Source: Candidatus Andersenbacteria bacterium RIFCSPHIGHO2_02_FULL_46_16 (GTDB lineage: Bacteria > Patescibacteriota > Andersenbacteria > UBA10190). From it: a DNA stretch of 64,000 nt. The translations under genes were made by a program, and so were the position numbers. Position 1 is the first letter of the stretch, and every line of letters begins with the position of its first letter. This document shows, piece after piece, positions 13,527-45,689 of this stretch. The notes under the pieces are model-generated. The model did no database searches. It was not told the DNA's origin and saw nothing but the letters and a program-made list of their open reading frames with translations. Location of the stretch: the NCBI GenBank assembly GCA_001817065.1, contig MHHQ01000015.1, positions 1,017 to 65,016 of the forward strand. The letters run 5' to 3'.

Positions 13527-13994
13527 TCTGGTGGGGAATAATGAAGTCAATATACTTGTAGCTAGCGATATAAATGAGGTTTTTGTAAGTAAATTTATGA
13601 AGATAGAACAAGTTAGGCAAAGTCGTGAAACGACGAGCAGAACAAGGTGAAGCTATGCTAAGCGAGGTGAAGCCAACGATATTAGGTAATAGAGCGAAGC
13701 AAGTGGATTTCGTCTAACGTATCGCTATATCCGAAGTTCTGCGGAGCGTAGCGGAGCAAAATATGGGTGGAGGCTTTTGTATAAAAGCCGTAACCGGATA
13801 CTTGTTGTTAGCTGATGTATATGTTTTTCTCTAATTTAAGAGTTGGGCGATAGCCCAAAAAAGAAAAGGAATATTTCAGCTAACGTTTACGCATCATCTG
13901 AAGTTTTCATCCCGACTTAGCAGGATAAACTTTTTATTTCAGACTACGCTTTATTTAATTATCTCCGCCTAAATCTTCATCTAAACTAAGGGGT

Positions 13995-14065
13995 GAAAAT
14001 TTGGGTCGAGAAAAGTTTTCACTCCTTGTTAATTCTAATAATGAAAAATTTTGGAGCCAGATATG
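13995..14065. repeat. Island repeat module A (AAATTTGGG + covarying hairpin + CCAGATATG)
   Basis: Homologous to modules at 14816-14890 and 17204-17280; interrupted at its 3' end by the 172-bp GC-rich element. Confidence 0.6.
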
Positions 14066-14233
14066 GAAGTCACATTATGAAATGCCACAAATATAGTGAC
14101 GGGCCCTGTCGGCGCTGCACCCCCACCCGACGGCTTCGGCCTGCCAGGCGGGCAGCCTGCAGGCGCTCGGTGGGGGTCCCCCGCGCCGCCACCCGTTTAT
14201 TTAAGAGTGGCATTTCATAATGTGACATCTATA
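14062..14233. repeat. 172-bp GC-rich palindromic element, copy 1
   Basis: Identical except 1 nt to copies at 41665-41836 and 45464-45635; 20-bp perfect TIR gtcacattatgaaatgccac / gtggcatttcataatgtgac; ~75% GC core. Confidence 0.8.
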
Positions 14234-14274
14234 GTTGGTGTTGGGCGATGTTGGATTTCATTTTCCATTCCTTA

Positions 14275-14688
14275 TTATTGTATTTTAAATAAATCGCCGT
14301 TTAGTATAACTGGTTGCATTGCAAGAAGTTCGTCAGTATAAATCATCTCTGGAATATCATTTAATATGAAAATTGTTTTATTCAAACAGTGCGCAAAACC
14401 CATTTCCAAAAAAGAATTGCCCCCGATATAATTACGAATACCCTTTTTATCAATATTAACTATCAATACAGCATCAGCGTTTTTAATCTTCTCAAAATAA
14501 TCACGAATTAAATCATGTTCAATCTTGTTTTTGGTAGATTCGTGAGAAGATTCCTCGGCCAATACTTTTTCGGCATATTTCTTGGTGTGTTTCGGTAATA
14601 CAACTTCGTGATTATTTTGAAGCAATTCTTTTTTAGCGGCTAACATTTGAACAGCTGACGACATGCTTCCGCAAATAACAATTTTCAT
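14275..14688 (-). CDS. Nucleoside 2-deoxyribosyltransferase-like (NDT/SLOG-fold) protein
   Basis: MKIVICGSMS N-terminus and GGNSFLEMGFAHCLNKTIFILN resemble the NDT-family Gly-rich start and catalytic Glu segment. Confidence 0.5.
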   Translation of the reverse strand: MKIVICGSMSSAVQMLAAKKELLQNNHEVVLPKHTKKYAEKVLAEESSHESTKNKIEHDLIRDYFEKIKNADAVLIVNIDKKGIRNYIGGNSFLEMGFAHCLNKTIFILNDIPEMIYTDELLAMQPVILNGDLFKIQ

Positions 14689-14815
14689 ATTTTTCTGTGG
14701 CTAGGTGATTTATTTAAAATATTTTTATAAAGGGAAAATGGAAGCCAATTTCGCACAATGTTTCGGGATATCTGATGTTTCTGGCTCGATTCAATATAAA
14801 TGTAGAAAAGAGCCT

Positions 14816-14890
14816 GAAATATGGGTCGAAGAAATTTGACATACCTTATTTATTAAATGCGTCAAATTTCTGAGCTAGATATCCCGTGTT
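14816..14890. repeat. Island repeat module B
   Basis: AAATATGGGTCGAAGAAATTTGAC...GTCAAATTTCTGAGCTAGATATCCCGTGTT; hairpin stem AAATTTGAC/GTCAAATTT. Confidence 0.6.
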
Positions 14891-14938
14891 CTGCGACCCG
14901 AAGGGCTTGAGTCGCAAAAAAATTTATAATCGGCTTGG

Positions 14939-15481
14939 TCACTTCTTAATTTTAGTTTCAGGATACCTTACGATAACAGAAAAAATATCCCCTTTATCGT
15001 CCAGCTCATCAAGTCTAGTAAAAAGGTCCAAAACTATGTCATCAGTAATATCTTCTTTAAGCCGTATAATGAGCGCGCGATTGATTCCGAGTTGTTTATA
15101 TAAACTTTCCATCGCTTGAAATTTTCTCTCTTTATTTTTAACAACGGTATGCTTTCCGCTGGTTACATCCACTGCGTAGTTTTTGCCATGGAAGGTAAAC
15201 ATCATGTCAATGCCGAGCATACGATCCAATAAAATATCTTTCGGTAAATCAGATAGCTTTAGGCCTTCATCGCGCAACTTTTGCACCACCAGTTCATATC
15301 TCTGCGGAAAGCCCTGTTTGACCTGCTCTAAGATTTTTCCCTCGCCATCTTCAAGAGAGAAAATTTCAACGCCAAGATCGCGCGCGGCTTCAATCAGTTT
15401 GTGCATTCTTTGCTCTGCCAACATTGAAACTTCGTTTACATAGTTTGGGGATATTTTTTCTTGTTTTGGTGATTCAAACAT
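14939..15481 (-). CDS. Hypothetical protein (180 aa)
   Basis: ORF track; same orientation as the other island genes; no recognisable family. Confidence 0.45.
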   Translation of the reverse strand: MFESPKQEKISPNYVNEVSMLAEQRMHKLIEAARDLGVEIFSLEDGEGKILEQVKQGFPQRYELVVQKLRDEGLKLSDLPKDILLDRMLGIDMMFTFHGKNYAVDVTSGKHTVVKNKERKFQAMESLYKQLGINRALIIRLKEDITDDIVLDLFTRLDELDDKGDIFSVIVRYPETKIKK

Positions 15482-15855
15482 AGATTATAAATTTTTTGCT
15501 ATTTCCGATAAAGTCGTCGGTATATCTGAAGTTTACGACTAAAACTTTAGTTTTAGGAAGTAAATTTAAGATATACCGTGCTAGGCAAAGTCGCGAAACG
15601 ACGAGCAGAACACGGCGCAGCCGACGACTTTATGCAAAAGAGCGAAGCGATTTTGCATAACGTTTCAGAATATGCGATATTTGCCAGCGGTACAATATGC
15701 CCGAAGGGCGACCGCTGGCAAATATGGGTGTAGCGACCAGCGGGAGCGGAACCGCATATTCTGTGTTATACGCGCCGAAGGCCGAGCCAGAGTGCAACGT
15801 CCCGTAGCGAAGCGGAGGGCTGGCGAAGAGTCCGTCCCGCCCGACACTTCATCAC

Positions 15856-16350
15856 TTACTTTGTTTGCAAAAGGGCAGAAATTTTGTTTTCCAGATGGTC
15901 AATCCCGCCAAATTCTTTGACCGGAATTGATTTTATTTTGGCTCTCGTTTCAGGATTAACATGTGTAATTGTCATTTCTTCTGTTCCGCCGATACTTTCG
16001 CAATCATCTTCTATGAGTACATCTGGCATGACTCTCTCAGCTACATTTTTGTATTCTTCATCTCCGAGGCGGAATAGAAGTTGACCGTCTGGAAAATTGA
16101 ACTGTTTCAAAACCGCACGAACAGCTTCTATTTCATCTGACTTTCGACGTGATGTGAGATACAAAATTTCTGCCCCTTGGTTTTTCCACGAAGTCAATTT
16201 TTTCACTGCGCCACCGATTGGCACATATGAAGTATATTCCTTCACAGAAGGCTCTTTGGCTTTAACCTGTTGCACAATTTTCTCATGTGAATGCCCTACT
16301 GCGTTTTTGTGCATCGTTATTGTGCCTTCTGTGAATACCATGATTTTCAT
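15856..16350 (-). CDS. Hypothetical protein (about 164 aa, start MKIMVFTEGTI)
   Basis: ORF track 15856-16449; internal ATG at 16350 preferred; no recognisable family. Confidence 0.4.
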   Translation of the reverse strand: MKIMVFTEGTITMHKNAVGHSHEKIVQQVKAKEPSVKEYTSYVPIGGAVKKLTSWKNQGAEILYLTSRRKSDEIEAVRAVLKQFNFPDGQLLFRLGDEEYKNVAERVMPDVLIEDDCESIGGTEEMTITHVNPETRAKIKSIPVKEFGGIDHLENKISALLQTK

Positions 16351-16723
16351 AATAGCAGTGAAAAATTGATGTCCTTTATAAATTGTACCAATTAAGGGCG
16401 GGACGGATTGCGTATAACGTTCACCGATAAGCGAAGTTTTATTGAGCAAAGCGAAATAAAATTTGGGAAAATGCCGAGCCGAGGCATTTTCCGCTTATCG
16501 CGTTGTTAAACGACCCGAGCCCGCCTTTCCTTATTATAATATAAAATAATAAGGCGGGCAGAGCGCAGCGGGGCTTGAGTTTTGTTCAAAAATATATTCC
16601 TTATTAAATAAGCCCTTCTGAAATTTTTCGTCCGCGCTTGATTGACTTTTTGGTCACGATATGCTTAAGTGTACTATCCAGTCAACTTCGACTGGCAACG
16701 ACAATTAAAAGGAGGATAATGAT

Positions 16724-16972
16724 ATGCCATACGATCCGAGACCAGTAAGTGAGGGTGGCAACAGCGGTATCGACGAACGGTTTTCGCGAAAGGCTCCATC
16801 TGGAAAGTTCCGCGTCGTCATGGTTGACACATTTGACGGCACGGACTCTGTTGTCGGCGACTACACGCGCCGAGGCGCACAGAGGGTCGCCAAGAAAAAG
16901 GGTGGCGAAATGACCAAGATGTACGTTTACAACGACGAGGGTAAGTGCGTTGGGGAAACCGGAACTTTCTAG
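16724..16972 (+). CDS. Small hypothetical protein (82 aa), high-GC
   Basis: Perfect SD AAGGAGG 8 nt upstream of ATG; terminator hairpin 17005-17043 downstream; opposite strand to neighbouring island genes. Confidence 0.6.
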   Translation: MPYDPRPVSEGGNSGIDERFSRKAPSGKFRVVMVDTFDGTDSVVGDYTRRGAQRVAKKKGGEMTKMYVYNDEGKCVGETGTF

Positions 16973-17004
16973 TCGCAACTCATCATCAAGCCCAGTCGGC
17001 CATG

Positions 17005-17043
17005 GCCTGCTTGCATATGAATAATGTGGGCAGGTCTTTTTTT
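17005..17043 (+). terminator. Rho-independent terminator
   Basis: gcctgc...gcaggt stem followed by TTTTTTT. Confidence 0.5.
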
Positions 17044-17203
17044 GTAAAAATTTCAAAAGGGCTTAAATTTAAAATGAAAAAATATTTTTGAACAAAATTT
17101 CGTTTAACGTATCGGCATCATCTGAAGTTGCGCCCATTTTCAAAGGCTAAAACTTCAAATTTCCACCTATCATTATTATATCACCAAACTTTTATGTCAC
17201 GGC

Positions 17204-17280
17204 GCAATTTGGGAGAAGAAATTTTGCATGCCTTGATTTATAATTGTGCAAAATTTCTGAACCAGATATGCCGTGTTAGC
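17204..17280. repeat. Island repeat module C
   Basis: CAATTTGGGAGAAGAAATTTTGCA...TGCAAAATTTCTGAACCAGATATGCCGTGTT; 10-bp stem AAATTTTGCA/TGCAAAATTT. Confidence 0.6.
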
Positions 17281-17297
17281 TGATGTAAATTTAAAAA

Positions 17298-17585
17298 TTA
17301 TTTTTGAAACTTCCTTTGACAATCTATTGCAACTTTTATACATTCTTCCGGATCATACCCAAGGTCTTCACACCATCTTATCGTCGAAAATATAATATTA
17401 CCCAGTTCTTTTTTAAGTTCATCATCGGTATGCACACTTTTATCTTTTACAGCGTCACGTTCCCAGCGACAAATATCACCAAACACCTTGCCCATACGGA
17501 CAATGATTTGACTGAGGCTTAATTTCTGGTCGCCCCAAATATCGCGGCTTTGTTGCAATAGATTTTTTATTTCCATAGATTTCAA
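17298..17585 (-). CDS. MazG-like nucleotide pyrophosphohydrolase (small all-alpha NTP-PPase)
   Basis: 95 aa; ELKKELGNIIFSTIRWCEDLGYDPEECIKVAI resembles the MazG EXXE...ELGDxL...LgiD helix signature. Confidence 0.55.
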   Translation of the reverse strand: MKSMEIKNLLQQSRDIWGDQKLSLSQIIVRMGKVFGDICRWERDAVKDKSVHTDDELKKELGNIIFSTIRWCEDLGYDPEECIKVAIDCQRKFQK

Positions 17586-17673
17586 AAATAATTTTTAAAT
17601 TTATTTCAGCTAACTGGTTATTAAATGAACTTACGGATGTACTTTAGCATAATTTAGTATGTTATGCATACTT

Positions 17674-17682
17674 TTGATATAA
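17674..17682 (+). promoter_or_regulatory. Extended -10 element TGATATAAT for the recombinase gene
   Basis: TGaTATAAT lies 8 nt upstream of the GTG start at 17690, which would make the mRNA leaderless. Confidence 0.4.
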
Positions 17683-17689
17683 TAGTGAT

Positions 17690-18502
17690 GTGGAAAATGT
17701 TTTGGATAAAACCGAACGGATATTGCGATTGCGTAACTATAGTTCAAAGACTCGTAAAGCGTATTTGCTATATATAAAGGATTTTATCACGTTTTCCAAG
17801 AGAGTAGGTATTAGAAATAAACAAAAAGCAATTGAAGAGTTTTTACTTGATAAACATAAGCGAGGACAATCGCCGCAGACAATTAATCTTGCGTTGAATG
17901 CAGTGAAGTTTTTTTACCGCGAAGTATTAAAAGATCCGCAAAAAATAGATTTGAAAATGGCCAAGAGAAGTAAGAAATTGCCGGTTGTACTTTCACGCGC
18001 GGAAATTAAGAAGATTATTGATGGTACCAAGAACACAAAATATCGGTTAATGATTGCGCTGGGTTATGCCTGCGGTTTGCGAGTGAGCGAAGCGGTCAGT
18101 CTAAAAGTGCAGGATTTGGATATTGATGAATTGGTTGTCCACATAAAAAAAGGAAAGGGAAAAAAAGACAGAATTAGCGTATTACCGGAAAAATTGCAAA
18201 ACAATCTACGCAATTTAATAGCTGGTAAGAATAAAGGAGAATATGTTTTTAGTTCCAACCGTGGCGGACTCCTGACCACAACATCTTTACAAAAGATGTT
18301 TCGTCAAAGTTTGGCAAACGCGAGGATTAACAAGTTGGCAACTTTCCATTCATTGCGTCATTCTTTCGCGACGCACTTGCTGGAAAATGGCATCGATGTG
18401 CGCTACGTCCAAGAATTGCTTGGGCACGCCAATATCAGAACGACGCAAATATATACACGGGTGACAAATCCCGGGTTAAAGAAGATAAAAAGCCCGCTAT
18501 GA
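17690..18502 (+). CDS. Tyrosine site-specific recombinase (XerC/XerD-like integrase, 270 aa)
   Basis: C-terminal HSLRHSFATHLLENGIDVRYVQELLGHANIRTTQIYTRV carries the R..H..R..Y catalytic signature; N-terminal SAM-like core-binding domain; GTG start. Confidence 0.85.
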   Translation: MENVLDKTERILRLRNYSSKTRKAYLLYIKDFITFSKRVGIRNKQKAIEEFLLDKHKRGQSPQTINLALNAVKFFYREVLKDPQKIDLKMAKRSKKLPVVLSRAEIKKIIDGTKNTKYRLMIALGYACGLRVSEAVSLKVQDLDIDELVVHIKKGKGKKDRISVLPEKLQNNLRNLIAGKNKGEYVFSSNRGGLLTTTSLQKMFRQSLANARINKLATFHSLRHSFATHLLENGIDVRYVQELLGHANIRTTQIYTRVTNPGLKKIKSPL

Positions 18503-41664: not shown

Positions 41665-41836
41665 TATGGAAGTCACATTATGAAATGCCACAAATATAGT
41701 GACGGGCCCTGTCGGCGCTGCCCCCCCACCCGACGGCTTCGGCCTGCCAGGCGGGCAGCCTGCAGGCGCTCGGTGGGGGTCCCCCGCGCCGCCACCCGTT
41801 TATTTAAGAGTGGCATTTCATAATGTGACATCTATA
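41665..41836. repeat. 172-bp GC-rich palindromic element, copy 2
   Basis: Differs from copies 1 and 3 by a single A to C change (gctgcccccccacc). Confidence 0.8.
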
Positions 41837-45463: not shown

Positions 45464-45635
45464 TATGGAAGTCACATTATGAAATGCCACAAATATAGTG
45501 ACGGGCCCTGTCGGCGCTGCACCCCCACCCGACGGCTTCGGCCTGCCAGGCGGGCAGCCTGCAGGCGCTCGGTGGGGGTCCCCCGCGCCGCCACCCGTTT
45601 ATTTAAGAGTGGCATTTCATAATGTGACATCTATA
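45464..45635. repeat. 172-bp GC-rich palindromic element, copy 3
   Basis: Identical to copy 1. Confidence 0.8.
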
Positions 45636-45689
45636 GGTCTTCTGACATGCGTCAAAGTTAGCAGAAGAAGGGGGAGGGGGCAAGAGGAA

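What the first reader, a model, noticed from the sequence alone, without database searches (positions are those of the whole stretch)
13758..17280. Structured repeat family: AAATWTGGG motif plus a hairpin with compensatory stem changes, six instances confined to the island
Three long copies are clearly homologous over about 75 bp: 13995-14065, 14816-14890 and 17204-17280. Each reads AAATWTGGG, a short spacer, then a stem-loop, then CTGAGCYAGATATSCCGTGTT. The stem sequence differs between copies but pairing is preserved: AAAAGTTTTCA/TGAAAAATTTT, AAATTTGAC/GTCAAATTT and AAATTTTGCA/TGCAAAATTT. The loop is conserved, about 20 nt (CCTTGWTTWAT..AAT). Shorter relatives occur at 13758-13790 (AAAATATGGGTGG + GGCTTTT/AAAAGCC), 15681-15730 (14-bp stem ATATTTGCCAGCGG/CCGCTGGCAAATAT overlapping AAATATGGGTG) and 16460-16500 (AAATTTGGGAAAATGCC/GGCATTTTCC). 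Compensatory stem changes indicate that a folded nucleic acid is under selection. It could be a recombination site or an RNA element at the 3' end of each cassette gene. I did not notice this motif anywhere outside the island in this window.
Basis: seen in the sequence. Interest (0 to 1): 0.7.

Follow-up and report, generated by a model that had tools for sequence, protein, structure and literature searches.

The report
Integron-type recombination hairpins in a CPR bacterium
The repeats are the folded-DNA recombination sites (attC-like) that bound the gene cassettes of an integron-like array, sitting next to a recombinase that unexpectedly lacks the protein domain thought to be required for handling such hairpins.

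Summary
The repeat family is real, is confined to 13.5-17.7 kb and is structured. This is a Y-shaped hairpin of 83-206 nt with AAC/GTT cores.

A covariance model built from three of the sites plus three relatives recovered the two long copies that were not in its seed. It hit nothing else in the 64 kb. It found about 90 further sites in Patescibacteria (CPR) and metagenome contigs. Where a homologue of the 270-aa recombinase is present, the sites lie upstream of it on its coding strand.

Covariation is strong: 88% of cells paired against 66% in shuffles and 34-49% in slid controls. A 100%-identical 1223-nt cassette sits in two different contexts. Both of its ends fall exactly at the AAC core, once next to an attI-like site.

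So these are attC-type sites of an integron-like array of eight cassettes. Two features depart from the classical integron. The recombinase lacks the IntI-specific I2 domain and scores between XerA and IntI. The unpaired bases lie on the same arm as AAC. I rate it a new variant of a known kind.

The parts
13556..13620 (+). Site D': degenerate remnant site at the distal end of the array, 30 nt after the argS stop. It ends in GTTAGGC (GTT at 13612-13614).
   Evidence: Homologous to site D plus its spacer (13579-13700 vs 15550-15648, 77-86%). The model does not hit it. Assigned by homology only.
13716..13809 (+). Site A. AAC 13716-18; P1 13728-33/13795-800; P2 13734-38/13760-64; GGG 13765-67; P3 GGCTTTT/AAAAGCC 13772-78/13783-89; GTT 13807-09.
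   Evidence: Model hit 13710-13816, 79.5 bits. Homologues at L004 8370-8475 and L032 5641-5748. Its own predicted minimum-energy fold differs from the model fold (-15.4 vs -7.4 kcal/mol).
13882..14242 (+). AAC 13882-84; P1L 13890-13900; P2 13901-13/13990-14002; GGG 14003-05; P3 14011-21/14042-52; P1R 14058-65. It is interrupted by the 173-nt element 14062-14234. GTT at 14240-42.
   Evidence: Homology to C and G (families D6, D8, D9). The insertion has two more copies in the window. Not a significant model hit (7.5 bits).
14757..14890 (+). Site C (long copy). Degenerate core AAT 14757-59; bulge TTT; P1 14764-73/14877-86; P2 14775-81/14816-22; GGG 14823-25; P3 14831-40/14861-70; GTT 14888-90.
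   Evidence: Not in the model seed, yet hit at 42.2 bits, E 7e-10. The minimum-energy DNA fold is exactly the three-way junction.
15510..15582 (+). Site D: simple hairpin variant without P3. Degenerate cores (AAA, GCT). P1 15518-27/15569-78; P2 15529-36/15560-67.
   Evidence: DNA fold -17.8 kcal/mol. Its left arm belongs to repeat family D1/D20. Not a significant model hit.
15659..15767 (+). AAC 15659-61; bulge TTT; P1 15666-76/15753-63; P2 is the 14-bp stem 15677-90/15712-25; GGG 15726-28; weak P3; GTT 15765-67.
   Evidence: Model hit at 84.6 bits; its complement scores only 13.5. Homologues at L006 8022-8125, L004 1984-2087, L079 and L151.
16416..16507 (+). AAC 16416-18; bulge TTCAC; P1 16425-33/16492-500; P2 16434-44/16454-64; GGG 16465-67; P3 16468-75/16483-90; GTTAAAC 16505-11.
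   Evidence: Model hit at 103.5 bits; its complement scores 19.5. L003 9023-9126 has an identical P3 and compensated P1 and P2.
17106..17277 (+). Site G (long copy). AAC 17106-08; bulge TAT; P1 17113-24 (one extra C)/17263-73; P2 AAGTTGCGCC/GGCGCAATTT 17125-34/17201-10; GGG 17211-13; P3 17218-28/17247-57; GTT 17275-77.
   Evidence: Not in the seed, yet hit at 46.8 bits, E 3e-11. The three-way-junction fold lies within 1 kcal/mol of the minimum (-22.1 vs -23.0).
17601..17667 (+). attI-like region. Core ATTTCAGCTAA|C TGGTTATTAAATGAA (AAC 17612-14), second GTTATGC box 17661-67, then TGATATAAT (17675-83) before the recombinase gene.
   Evidence: Conserved in 7 loci: ATTTCGTATAAC-TSGTT-TATnCGAA. 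In L037 the shared cassette ends at this type of junction.
17690..18502 (+). Tyrosine recombinase, 270 aa. It is IntI/XerA-like and lacks the IntI-specific I2 domain.
17298..17585 (-). ORF of cassette 1 (cassette 17108-17613), 95 aa. It is flanked by the 35-nt inverted repeat 17275-17309/17580-17614.
   Evidence: I2; called as a gene in L155 and L156.
16724..16972 (+). ORF of cassette 2 (16418-17107), 82 aa. It is in reversed orientation and has its own promoter-like TTGACT and terminator 17004-17036.
   Evidence: L003 has the same scaffold with a different ORF.
15856..16449 (-). ORF of cassette 3 (15661-16417). Weak LNS2/HAD-like match.
14939..15481 (-). ORF of cassette 5 (14759-15511), 180 aa, no family. 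Cassette 4 (15512-15660) has no ORF.
14275..14688 (-). ORF of cassette 6 (13884-14758), 137 aa, weak nucleoside 2-deoxyribosyltransferase-like match. Cassettes 7 (13718-13883) and 8 (about 13556-13717) have no ORF.

Best explanation
The repeats are attC-type recombination sites of a chromosomal integron-like cassette array in a Patescibacteria (CPR) genome.

Arrangement. The array runs from an attI-like site beside the recombinase gene (crossover core AAC at 17612-14) leftwards to the end of argS. It holds eight cassettes. Each cassette consists of its content plus one hairpin site at its attI-distal end.

The folding strand. The window + strand is the recombinase coding strand and is antisense to most cassette ORFs. 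It corresponds to the 'bottom strand' of classical integrons. This is the strand proposed to fold as single-stranded DNA.

The fold (shown by covariation):
- an R box, TAAC-G paired with T-GTTA;
- a 2-4 nt bulge standing in for the central region;
- an L box, helix P1, which carries TATGCGAA, the motif also found in the right arm of attI;
- a three-way junction of P2, GGG and P3.
Folded this way, the site mimics the double-stranded attI core.

The reaction.
- Shown by comparison of loci: cassette boundaries fall in the AAC triplet, which places the exchange there.
- Inferred by analogy with integrons and with CTX phage/XerCD: the neighbouring 270-aa recombinase cuts between A and C, exchanges only that one strand, and replication resolves the product.

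Speculation. The missing I2 domain goes together with the absence of extrahelical bases on the arm opposite AAC. Strand choice would then rest on three asymmetries: the one-sided bulge, two conserved G.T pairs, and the one-sided P3 branch.
For: Structure:
- 60 sites: 88.6% of cells paired vs 66.2% shuffled and 34-45% slid. 26 of 33 pairs change on both sides. P1 is 95% paired and P2 97.5%.
- The same holds for 17 sites found through the recombinase and not through my DNA pattern.
- Model specificity: 5 hits in 64 kb, all in the island, all on the + strand. Two of them were not in the seed. Complements score 13-20 bits against 85-104.

Association with the recombinase:
- Within every locus all sites lie on one strand.
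- Where a recombinase homologue is present, the sites are upstream of it on its coding strand. This holds in the window, L003-L006, L009, L016, L024, L047, L048, L050, L078, L119, L123, L150 and L152.

Crossover:
- L037 and L054 share a 100%-identical 1223-nt block that starts at ...|AACGTTT and ends at ...TATAAC|. Beyond it lie different flanks: an attI-like region in one, another site in the other.
- The L004/L114 homology ends at TATAACGTT|.
- The 12 nt outside the cores are complementary between the two ends of one inter-site segment (6.5 of 12). They are not complementary across one site (4.5) or in random pairs (4.2), p about 1e-4 to 1e-7.
- The single-cassette locus L003 has one site, which abuts a chromosomal gene at the far end, and an AAC junction next to the recombinase gene.

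Strand:
- The site strand is more stable in 87 of 91 sites, by 2.95 kcal/mol on average.
- Two G.T pairs are conserved (51 of 60 and 57 of 60). Classical bottom strands show the same signature (Nivina 2016, PMC5027507).

attI and recombinase:
- The attI region is conserved in 7 loci.
- The recombinase's best solved relative is VchIntIA (E 2e-48).
- HxxR, a further H and the C-terminal Y are visible in the sequence (alignment).

The island is compositionally distinct: GC 0.39-0.41 vs 0.45, GC skew about 0 vs +0.25.
Against: - No experiment or read-level evidence shows excision or insertion. The same strain in six samples carries an identical array.
- The recombinase lacks the I2 domain. The literature holds I2 to be necessary for cassette capture (Escudero 2020, PMC7790495). 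Activity on hairpins is therefore unproven.
- Several relatives pass NCBI's XerA cutoff rather than the integron-integrase cutoff.
- The unpaired bases lie on the AAC arm in 60 of 60 sites. This is the opposite of the classical position of extrahelical bases.
- Low-stringency homology blocks sometimes cross the left core. Only two high-identity junctions define the crossover.
- 55 of the metagenome sites were fished with a pattern that fixes AACGT, GAWRTT and AAWTWTGGG. Conservation of those motifs is therefore inflated. Among 28 sites that do not match the pattern, WTWTGGG is present in only 16.
- The alignments used for pair counts were fitted to the model.
Confidence: 0.78

Rival explanations
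1. IMEX-type reading. The recombinase is simply the host's housekeeping Xer (XerA-like chromosome-dimer resolvase). The site beside it is a dif. The 'cassettes' are selfish hairpin-bearing elements that hijack Xer and pile up at dif, as CTX and other IMEX elements do. On this reading it is not a dedicated gene-capture platform.
For: - Relatives pass the XerA_Arch cutoff (226-244 bits against 220).
- There is no I2 domain.
- The family is very large and conserved: more than 6400 proteins at E<1e-30, with the top 120 about 80% identical and 266-281 aa long. That would fit a housekeeping gene.
- The attI core looks dif-like, about 11+5/6+11 nt: ATTTCGTATAA|CTCGT|TTATATGCGAA.
- There is precedent for a folded single-strand substrate used by XerCD (CTX phage, as discussed in PMC7790495).
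Against: - In this window the GC skew has the same sign and size on both sides of the locus (+0.26 and +0.23). The site is therefore not at a replication terminus, where a dif belongs. The same holds in L003, L024, L152 and L153.
- The site always sits directly upstream of the recombinase gene, in different chromosomal neighbourhoods.
- The units are single small ORFs, or none, each with one site. They carry no replication or transfer genes. Most are co-oriented away from attI, as in integrons.
- This rival differs from the best explanation mainly in who benefits, not in chemistry.
Confidence: 0.13
2. RNA element. The hairpins act in transcripts, as 3'-end stabilisers, terminators or regulatory RNA of each cassette gene. 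Recombination is incidental.
For: - Each site lies 60-100 nt 3' of a cassette ORF.
- On the ORF strand, the F-type P3 followed by CCCAAATTTT scores as an intrinsic terminator.
- Conserved G.U-type pairs are typical of RNA.
Against: - The G.T pairs and the lower folding energy are on the strand antisense to most ORFs. On the mRNA strand those positions would be A.C mismatches.
- No Rfam family matches.
- Terminator-like geometry is present in one site type only. The count of terminator-like sites does not exceed shuffles (4 vs 4.2).
- An RNA role does not explain the invariant AAC/GTT cores, the cassette breakpoints at AAC, or the obligatory recombinase neighbour.
Confidence: 0.04
3. Generic palindromic repeats (REP/BIME- or MITE-like) that spread within AT-rich intergenic DNA and have no link to the recombinase.
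For: - The window does contain an unrelated palindromic mobile repeat (173 nt, three copies).
- Hairpin repeats in intergenic DNA are common in bacteria.
Against: - There is no copy outside the island in 64 kb.
- Strand and position relative to the recombinase are strict in at least 15 loci.
- The stems covary while the sequence diverges. This is not the pattern of recently copied MITEs.
- Cassette-type flank complementarity is present.
Confidence: 0.03

Closest known systems
Integron attC sites (59-base elements), especially the long, mutually similar sites of sedentary chromosomal integrons such as Vibrio VCRs
   Same: - Imperfect palindromes with RYYYAAC...GTTRRRY-like cores, an R box, an unpaired spacer, an L box and a variable (sometimes branched) terminal structure.
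- Structure is conserved more than sequence.
- One site sits at the 3' end of each cassette.
- The crossover is in AAC.
- The outer core bases are complementary to the other end of the same cassette.
- The bottom strand has more G.T pairs and a lower folding energy (PMC5027507).
- The array lies next to attI and a divergently oriented recombinase gene.
- Sites within an array resemble each other.
- ORF-less and reversed, self-promoted cassettes occur.
   Different: - There are no extrahelical bases on the arm opposite AAC.
- The only regular unpaired stretch is a 2-4 nt bulge on the AAC arm, with 0 nt on the other arm (60 of 60 sites).
- The three-way junction is conserved, with AAGTT/AAWTWT, GGG and a single C linker.
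- The L box carries a conserved TATGCGAA-like sequence.
- Inverted repeats extend 20-75 nt beyond the cores.
- The partner recombinase has no I2 domain.
- The host is a CPR bacterium. I found no report of integrons in that group in the searched library.
CTX-phage attP(+) hairpin and other IMEX elements using XerCD at dif
   Same: - A folded single strand mimics the duplex core site of a Xer-type recombinase that has no I2 domain.
- An imperfect central region would allow only one strand exchange, with replication resolving the product.
   Different: - Here there are arrays of many single-gene units, each with its own hairpin.
- The target lies beside the recombinase gene and, in this window, not at a terminus.
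- There are no phage or replication genes.
Archaeal XerA/dif (single-recombinase dimer resolution)
   Same: - Protein size (about 265-290 aa), domain make-up and score. Relatives pass the XerA_Arch cutoff.
- The attI core resembles a dif of about 28 nt.
   Different: - XerA is not known to be flanked by hairpin-bounded cassette arrays.
- The window protein itself falls below the XerA cutoff (211.6 against 220). Its best solved relative is an integron integrase.
Acinetobacter pdif modules
   Same: Small gene modules bounded by inverted recombinase-binding sites. The inter-site segments here also have inverted-repeat ends.
   Different: - pdif sites are 28-bp duplex XerC/XerD sites on plasmids.
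- They are not about-100-nt covarying hairpins and are not arrayed next to a dedicated recombinase gene.

Membership tests
Integron (IntI + attI + attC cassettes) | Integrase is a tyrosine recombinase carrying the IntI-specific additional domain (I2 helix) around patch III | tested here: not met
   VchIntIA residues about 212-241 have no counterpart. TIGR02249 scores 229 bits against a cutoff of 265 and matches in two pieces. Relatives are 266-281 aa long.
Integron (IntI + attI + attC cassettes) | attC: imperfect inverted repeat with AAC...GTT cores forming an R box, spacer and L box hairpin; structure conserved rather than sequence | tested here: met
   AAC and GTT are near-invariant. P1, P2 and P3 covary. 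Lengths are 83-206 nt, median 110.
Integron (IntI + attI + attC cassettes) | Cassette boundaries lie in the AAC/GTT core; the same cassette can sit at attI or between attCs | tested here: met
   The L037/L054 identical 1223-nt block is bounded by AAC at both ends, with an attI-like flank in one locus and another site in the other. Flank complementarity test. Only two high-identity junctions are available.
Integron (IntI + attI + attC cassettes) | Extrahelical bases near L'' on the arm opposite the AAC of the recombined (bottom) strand | tested here: not met
   There are 2-4 unpaired nt on the AAC arm and 0 on the other arm in 60 of 60 sites. Extra bases inside P1 are rare and mostly on the AAC arm. 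The classical geometry is taken from PMC5027507.
Integron (IntI + attI + attC cassettes) | Bottom strand folds better than the top strand (G.T mispairs, lower energy) and is the strand antisense to cassette ORFs | tested here: met
   87 of 91 sites, mean -2.95 kcal/mol. Conserved G.T pairs at two positions. 4 of 5 window ORFs lie on the opposite strand.
Integron (IntI + attI + attC cassettes) | attI adjacent to the integrase gene, with the array of mostly co-oriented short ORFs extending away from it | tested here: met
   Conserved region ending in ..TATAAC|TSGTT in 7 loci. Same layout in at least 15 loci.
Integron (IntI + attI + attC cassettes) | Detected by IntegronFinder (attC covariance model plus intI_Cterm profile) | not testable with these tools
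   The program and its models are not available here. The missing I2 predicts no IntI call. Whether the attC model would hit is unknown.
Integron (IntI + attI + attC cassettes) | Integrase-dependent excision and insertion of cassettes | not testable with these tools
   This needs an experiment or read-level population data. The same strain in six samples is invariant.
Xer/dif with IMEX elements | dif core (11-6-11) located at the replication terminus | tested here: not met
   The core is dif-like in sequence. However, GC skew is +0.26 to the left and +0.23 to the right of the locus, so there is no switch. The result is mixed in short flanks of L004-L006.
Xer/dif with IMEX elements | Recombinase of XerC/D/A type without I2 | tested here: met
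Intrinsic terminators / known RNA families | GC-rich hairpin followed by a U tract on the transcribed strand, or a match to an Rfam model | tested here: not met
   Only the F-type P3 qualifies. The counts equal those in shuffles. Rfam gives no match.

The most novel reading that the evidence does not exclude
A very large family of I2-less recombinases, intermediate between XerA and IntI, operates genuine integrons with single-stranded hairpin attC sites. The family is widespread in Patescibacteria, with relatives in DPANN archaea. Strand choice and one-strand exchange would be achieved by site architecture: a one-sided central bulge, conserved G.T pairs and a three-way junction. They would not depend on extrahelical bases read by the I2 helix. 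This would be either a surviving pre-I2 stage of integron evolution or an independent solution. It could also explain attC arrays reported without detectable IntI.
Probability: 0.45. Interest if true: 0.85.

Novelty: new variant of a known kind. Interest (0 to 1): 0.66.

Why it matters
Integron biology holds that the I2 domain is what lets an integrase recombine folded single-stranded attC sites. It also notes that no evolutionary intermediates are known (PMC7790495). Here is a natural, abundant recombinase without I2. It is tied in at least 15 loci to arrays of covarying hairpin sites, and the cassette breakpoints fall at AAC.

If this recombinase is active on those sites, three things follow:
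- The question of how integrons arose from Xer-like enzymes becomes directly testable.
- Integron-type gene capture is extended to the ultra-small CPR bacteria, and probably to DPANN archaea.
- Current integron finders, which require I2, would be missing a whole class of integrons.

If it turns out to be plain Xer hijacking, it is still an unusual tandem single-gene IMEX array.

Tried and rejected
- Two home-made hairpin scanners (AAC...GTT plus an arm duplex) gave dozens of hits per strand across the window. They were too unspecific to use.
- MAFFT on all eight sites could not align the variable inner parts. I therefore seeded the model with six sites of similar length.
I used ViennaRNA in a script instead.
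- Low-stringency BLAST breakpoints were ambiguous. There were 22 block starts at the left core and none at the right core, but several blocks crossed the left core. Only the blocks of at least 93% identity were informative.
- I looked for cassette polymorphism in the same strain. Six contigs from six samples were identical.
- I searched the supplements of the archaeal integron paper for the motif and found no occurrence in the text held.
- PADLOC, Pfam and NCBIfam on the five cassette ORFs gave only weak hints: nucleoside deoxyribosyltransferase-like, LNS2/HAD-like, MazG-like and CARF-like.
- I first thought the bulge position meant the + strand was the 'top' strand, with the array reading towards the integrase. 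Three results rejected this: the single-cassette locus L003, the L037/L054 junctions, and the strand energy asymmetry.
- I considered the P3-loop AAGGAG as a ribosome-binding site for the next ORF and rejected it, because it lies about 160 nt from the next start codon.
- Literature searches for integrons in CPR/Patescibacteria found nothing relevant. The library is incomplete, so this is not proof of novelty.

Full report
**1. Observation**

- The three long copies are 74-79% identical over 33-63 nt.
- The 21-nt tail motif occurs only at copies C and G, against 0.01 expected by chance.
- AAATWTGGG occurs five times in the island, against about 2.9 expected for the whole 64 kb.
- Copy G reads CAATTTGGG.
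- Copy B lost its tail to a 173-nt palindromic element (14062-14234). That element has two further copies at 41665 and 45464.

**2. Anatomy**

A full site reads, in order:
- left core YTAAC-G;
- a 2-4 nt bulge;
- P1 (e.g. CGGCAT-C-ATCTG);
- P2 5' strand (AAGTT...);
- a variable loop of 3-83 nt;
- P2 3' strand (...AAWTWT);
- GGG;
- hairpin P3;
- a short linker;
- P1' (CAGATATGCCG);
- T-GTTR, the right core.

The tail pairs with the left arm. For site C this three-way junction is the minimum-energy fold. For site G it lies within 1 kcal/mol of the minimum. For site A it is clearly less favourable than the minimum.

I count eight sites. Five are supported by a covariance model. B, D and D' rest on homology and inspection only.

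**3. Is it more than chance?**

I built a covariance model (33 pairs) from window sites A, E and F and from one site each of three related loci.
- In the window it hits only five places. All are in the island and on the + strand. They include G (46.8 bits) and C (42.2 bits), which were not in the seed.
- With filters off, the complements of F and E score 19.5 and 13.5 bits against 103.5 and 84.6.
- It finds 12 sites in loci fetched through the recombinase protein.
- It finds about 78 sites in contigs fetched with a DNA pattern.

On 60 aligned sites:
- 88.6% of cells form pairs, against 66.2% in shuffles and 34-45% when partners are slid;
- 26 of 33 pairs show changes on both sides;
- P1 is 95% paired and P2 97.5%; the inner five pairs of P3 covary.

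The 17 pattern-independent sites give the same picture.

Caveats: the alignments are fitted to the model. The pattern also inflates the apparent conservation of AACGT, GAWRTT and AAWTWTGGG.

The long subfamily (B, C, G) has about 20 relatives from many metagenomes, with clearly compensated P3 stems.

**4. Context**

Within every locus all sites lie on one strand. Wherever a homologue of the recombinase is on the contig, the sites lie upstream of it on its coding strand. This holds in the window, L003-L006, L009, L016, L024, L047, L048, L050, L078, L119, L123, L150 and L152.

Between the last cassette and the gene lies a region conserved in seven loci. It ends in ATTTCGTATAAC|TSGTT-TATnCGAA. 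It also carries a second GTTATAC box and TGnTATAAT.

The window ORFs between sites are short. They are mostly on the minus strand and of unknown function. Three units have no ORF.

The island has lower GC and no GC skew, in a genome with skew of about +0.25.

**5. Where recombination happens**

*Shared cassette.* L037 and L054 share a 100%-identical 1223-nt block. It begins exactly at an AAC left core; the three bases before it already differ. It runs through the site and its content and ends exactly at the next AAC. Beyond that point L037 continues into an attI-like region and the start of a recombinase gene. L054 continues into another site. A second block, at 93% identity, ends at TATAACGTT|.

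*Flank complementarity.* The 12 nt outside the cores are complementary between the two ends of one inter-site segment (mean 6.5 of 12; 11 of 32 pairs reach at least 9). They are not complementary across a single site (4.5) or between random sites (4.2). This is the classical cassette signature.

*Single-cassette locus.* L003 has exactly one site. It sits four bases after a chromosomal gene at the far end. An AAC junction lies next to the recombinase gene.

*Conclusion.* The mobile unit is [C of AAC + site + content + ..TAA], and the site lies at the attI-distal end of its cassette. The + strand is thus the equivalent of the integron bottom strand. In agreement:
- it folds better than its complement in 87 of 91 sites, by 2.95 kcal/mol on average;
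- it carries two conserved G.T pairs;
- Nivina et al. 2016 report the same bias for classical bottom strands.

**6. The recombinase**
- Its best solved relative is the Vibrio integron integrase (2a3v, E 2e-48). The match comes in two pieces that skip residues about 212-241.
About 42 residues are missing exactly at the I2 region. The C-terminal ..SPL is shared.
- NCBIfam scores: integron integrase 229 bits (cutoff 265), archaeal XerA 212 bits (cutoff 220).
- Several relatives that also carry arrays pass the XerA cutoff.
- The family exceeds 6400 proteins at E<1e-30. The best 120 are 266-281 aa long and about 80% identical. Where a source names them, the names are XerD or tyrosine recombinase, mostly in several CPR lineages.

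It is therefore an I2-less enzyme lying between XerA and IntI. It does not meet the accepted definition of IntI.

**7. Mechanism (inferred)**

The folded + strand presents two binding elements:
- an R box (flank + TAAC-G / T-GTTA + flank);
- an L box (P1, carrying the TATGCGAA motif that also forms the right arm of attI).

They are separated by a central region that exists on one arm only. This is a mimic of the duplex attI. The recombinase would cut between A and C and exchange that strand with attI or with another site. The defective central region would block the second exchange. Replication would resolve the product, as in integrons and in CTX/XerCD.

What is shown: the structure, the strand bias, the cores, the breakpoints and the association with the recombinase. 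What is inferred: catalysis by this enzyme, single-strand exchange, and the roles of the bulge, GGG and P3.

**8. Rivals**
- *Pure Xer/dif-IMEX reading.* It shares the chemistry. It is weakened because the locus is not at a skew switch in this window and because of the integron-like unit structure.
- *RNA or terminator role.* It is disfavoured by strand, by Rfam and by terminator counts.
- *Generic palindromic repeats.* They do not fit the strict placement or the covariation.

**9. Comparison and novelty**

The sites meet the structural and positional criteria of attC. They fail two classical features: extrahelical bases opposite AAC, and an I2-bearing partner.

Literature found:
- Escudero et al. 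2020 call I2 necessary for cassette capture and lament the lack of intermediates.
- Ghaly et al. 2022 define archaeal IntI by that domain. They found 539 attCs in 75 genomes but only six IntIs.
- The IntegronFinder 2.0 survey does not mention CPR.
- I found no description of integrons in CPR. The library is incomplete.

I file this as a new variant of a known kind. The finding as written, a structured repeat, is explained. The interesting residue is the I2-less partner and the altered site geometry.

Noticed in passing
window 14062-14234, 41665-41836, 45464-45636: A 173-nt GC-rich palindromic element (ends TATGGAAGTCAC...GTGACATCTATAG, DNA fold about -59 kcal/mol). It has three near-identical copies, all intergenic and all in + orientation. 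One copy is inserted in the right arm of site B. None is present in the about 150 other loci. It looks like a small non-autonomous mobile element.
   Followed up: partly
window 17275-17309/17580-17614; 13807-27/13864-84; 16580-98/17079-97; 16609-28/17046-65; L004 8470-8545/9805-9880: Cassette contents are bracketed by inverted repeats that run 20-75 nt outward from the cores. This is far beyond the 7-bp R box of classical attC. In an excised circle they would lengthen the stem below the R box. Flank modules are shared between cassettes with unrelated ORFs (window cassette 2 and the L003 cassette).
   Followed up: partly
window 14841-14860, 17229-17246, 14022-14041, and about 20 metagenome sites: The P3 loop of the long site subfamily keeps a YCCTT motif, which reads AAGGAG or AAGGAAT on the ORF strand. 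It is too far (about 160 nt) from the next start codon to be its ribosome-binding site. Its function is unexplained.
   Followed up: no
whole window; island 13527-17689: GC skew is about +0.25 along the whole 64 kb but about 0 in the island, and the island's GC is 0.39-0.41 against 0.45. If the skew marks the leading strand, the folding strand of the sites is on the lagging-strand template, where single-stranded DNA is available.
   Followed up: partly
L016 628-728 and 2390-2396; L012, L015, L018, L019, L021, L025: MAGs labelled DPANN archaea (Nanoarchaeota, Pacearchaeota, Woesearchaeota) encode 36-43% identical I2-less recombinases. L016 has an F-type site (74.6 bits), a cassette with a long minus-strand ORF of unchecked function, and an ..ATATAAC junction upstream of the gene. 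This could be cross-domain spread or a binning error.
   Followed up: partly
window 17601-17630 and sites' left arms: The attI core resembles a dif of about 28 nt (ATTTCGTATAA|CTCGT|TTATATGCGAA). The motif TATGCGAA recurs at the P1/P2 boundary of the sites, two bases further from AAC than in attI.
   Followed up: partly
L006 8512-8968: One site has matching left and right arms (CGGCATATGCG / GCATATGCCG) and a normal P2. However, about 330 nt that include a small minus-strand ORF sit where P3 should be. An ORF-bearing insertion therefore lies inside a site.
   Followed up: no
window 16418-17107 (ORF 16724-16972 +): A reversed cassette with its own promoter-like TTGACT and a strong terminator (17004-17036). 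L003 carries the same scaffold around an unrelated 153-aa ORF.
   Followed up: no
L001, L002, L007, L008, L010, L011, L014, L015, L018, L157-L160: Many contigs end within a few hundred bases upstream of the recombinase gene. Assemblies seem to break at the array, which would fit repeated or population-variable cassettes.
   Followed up: no
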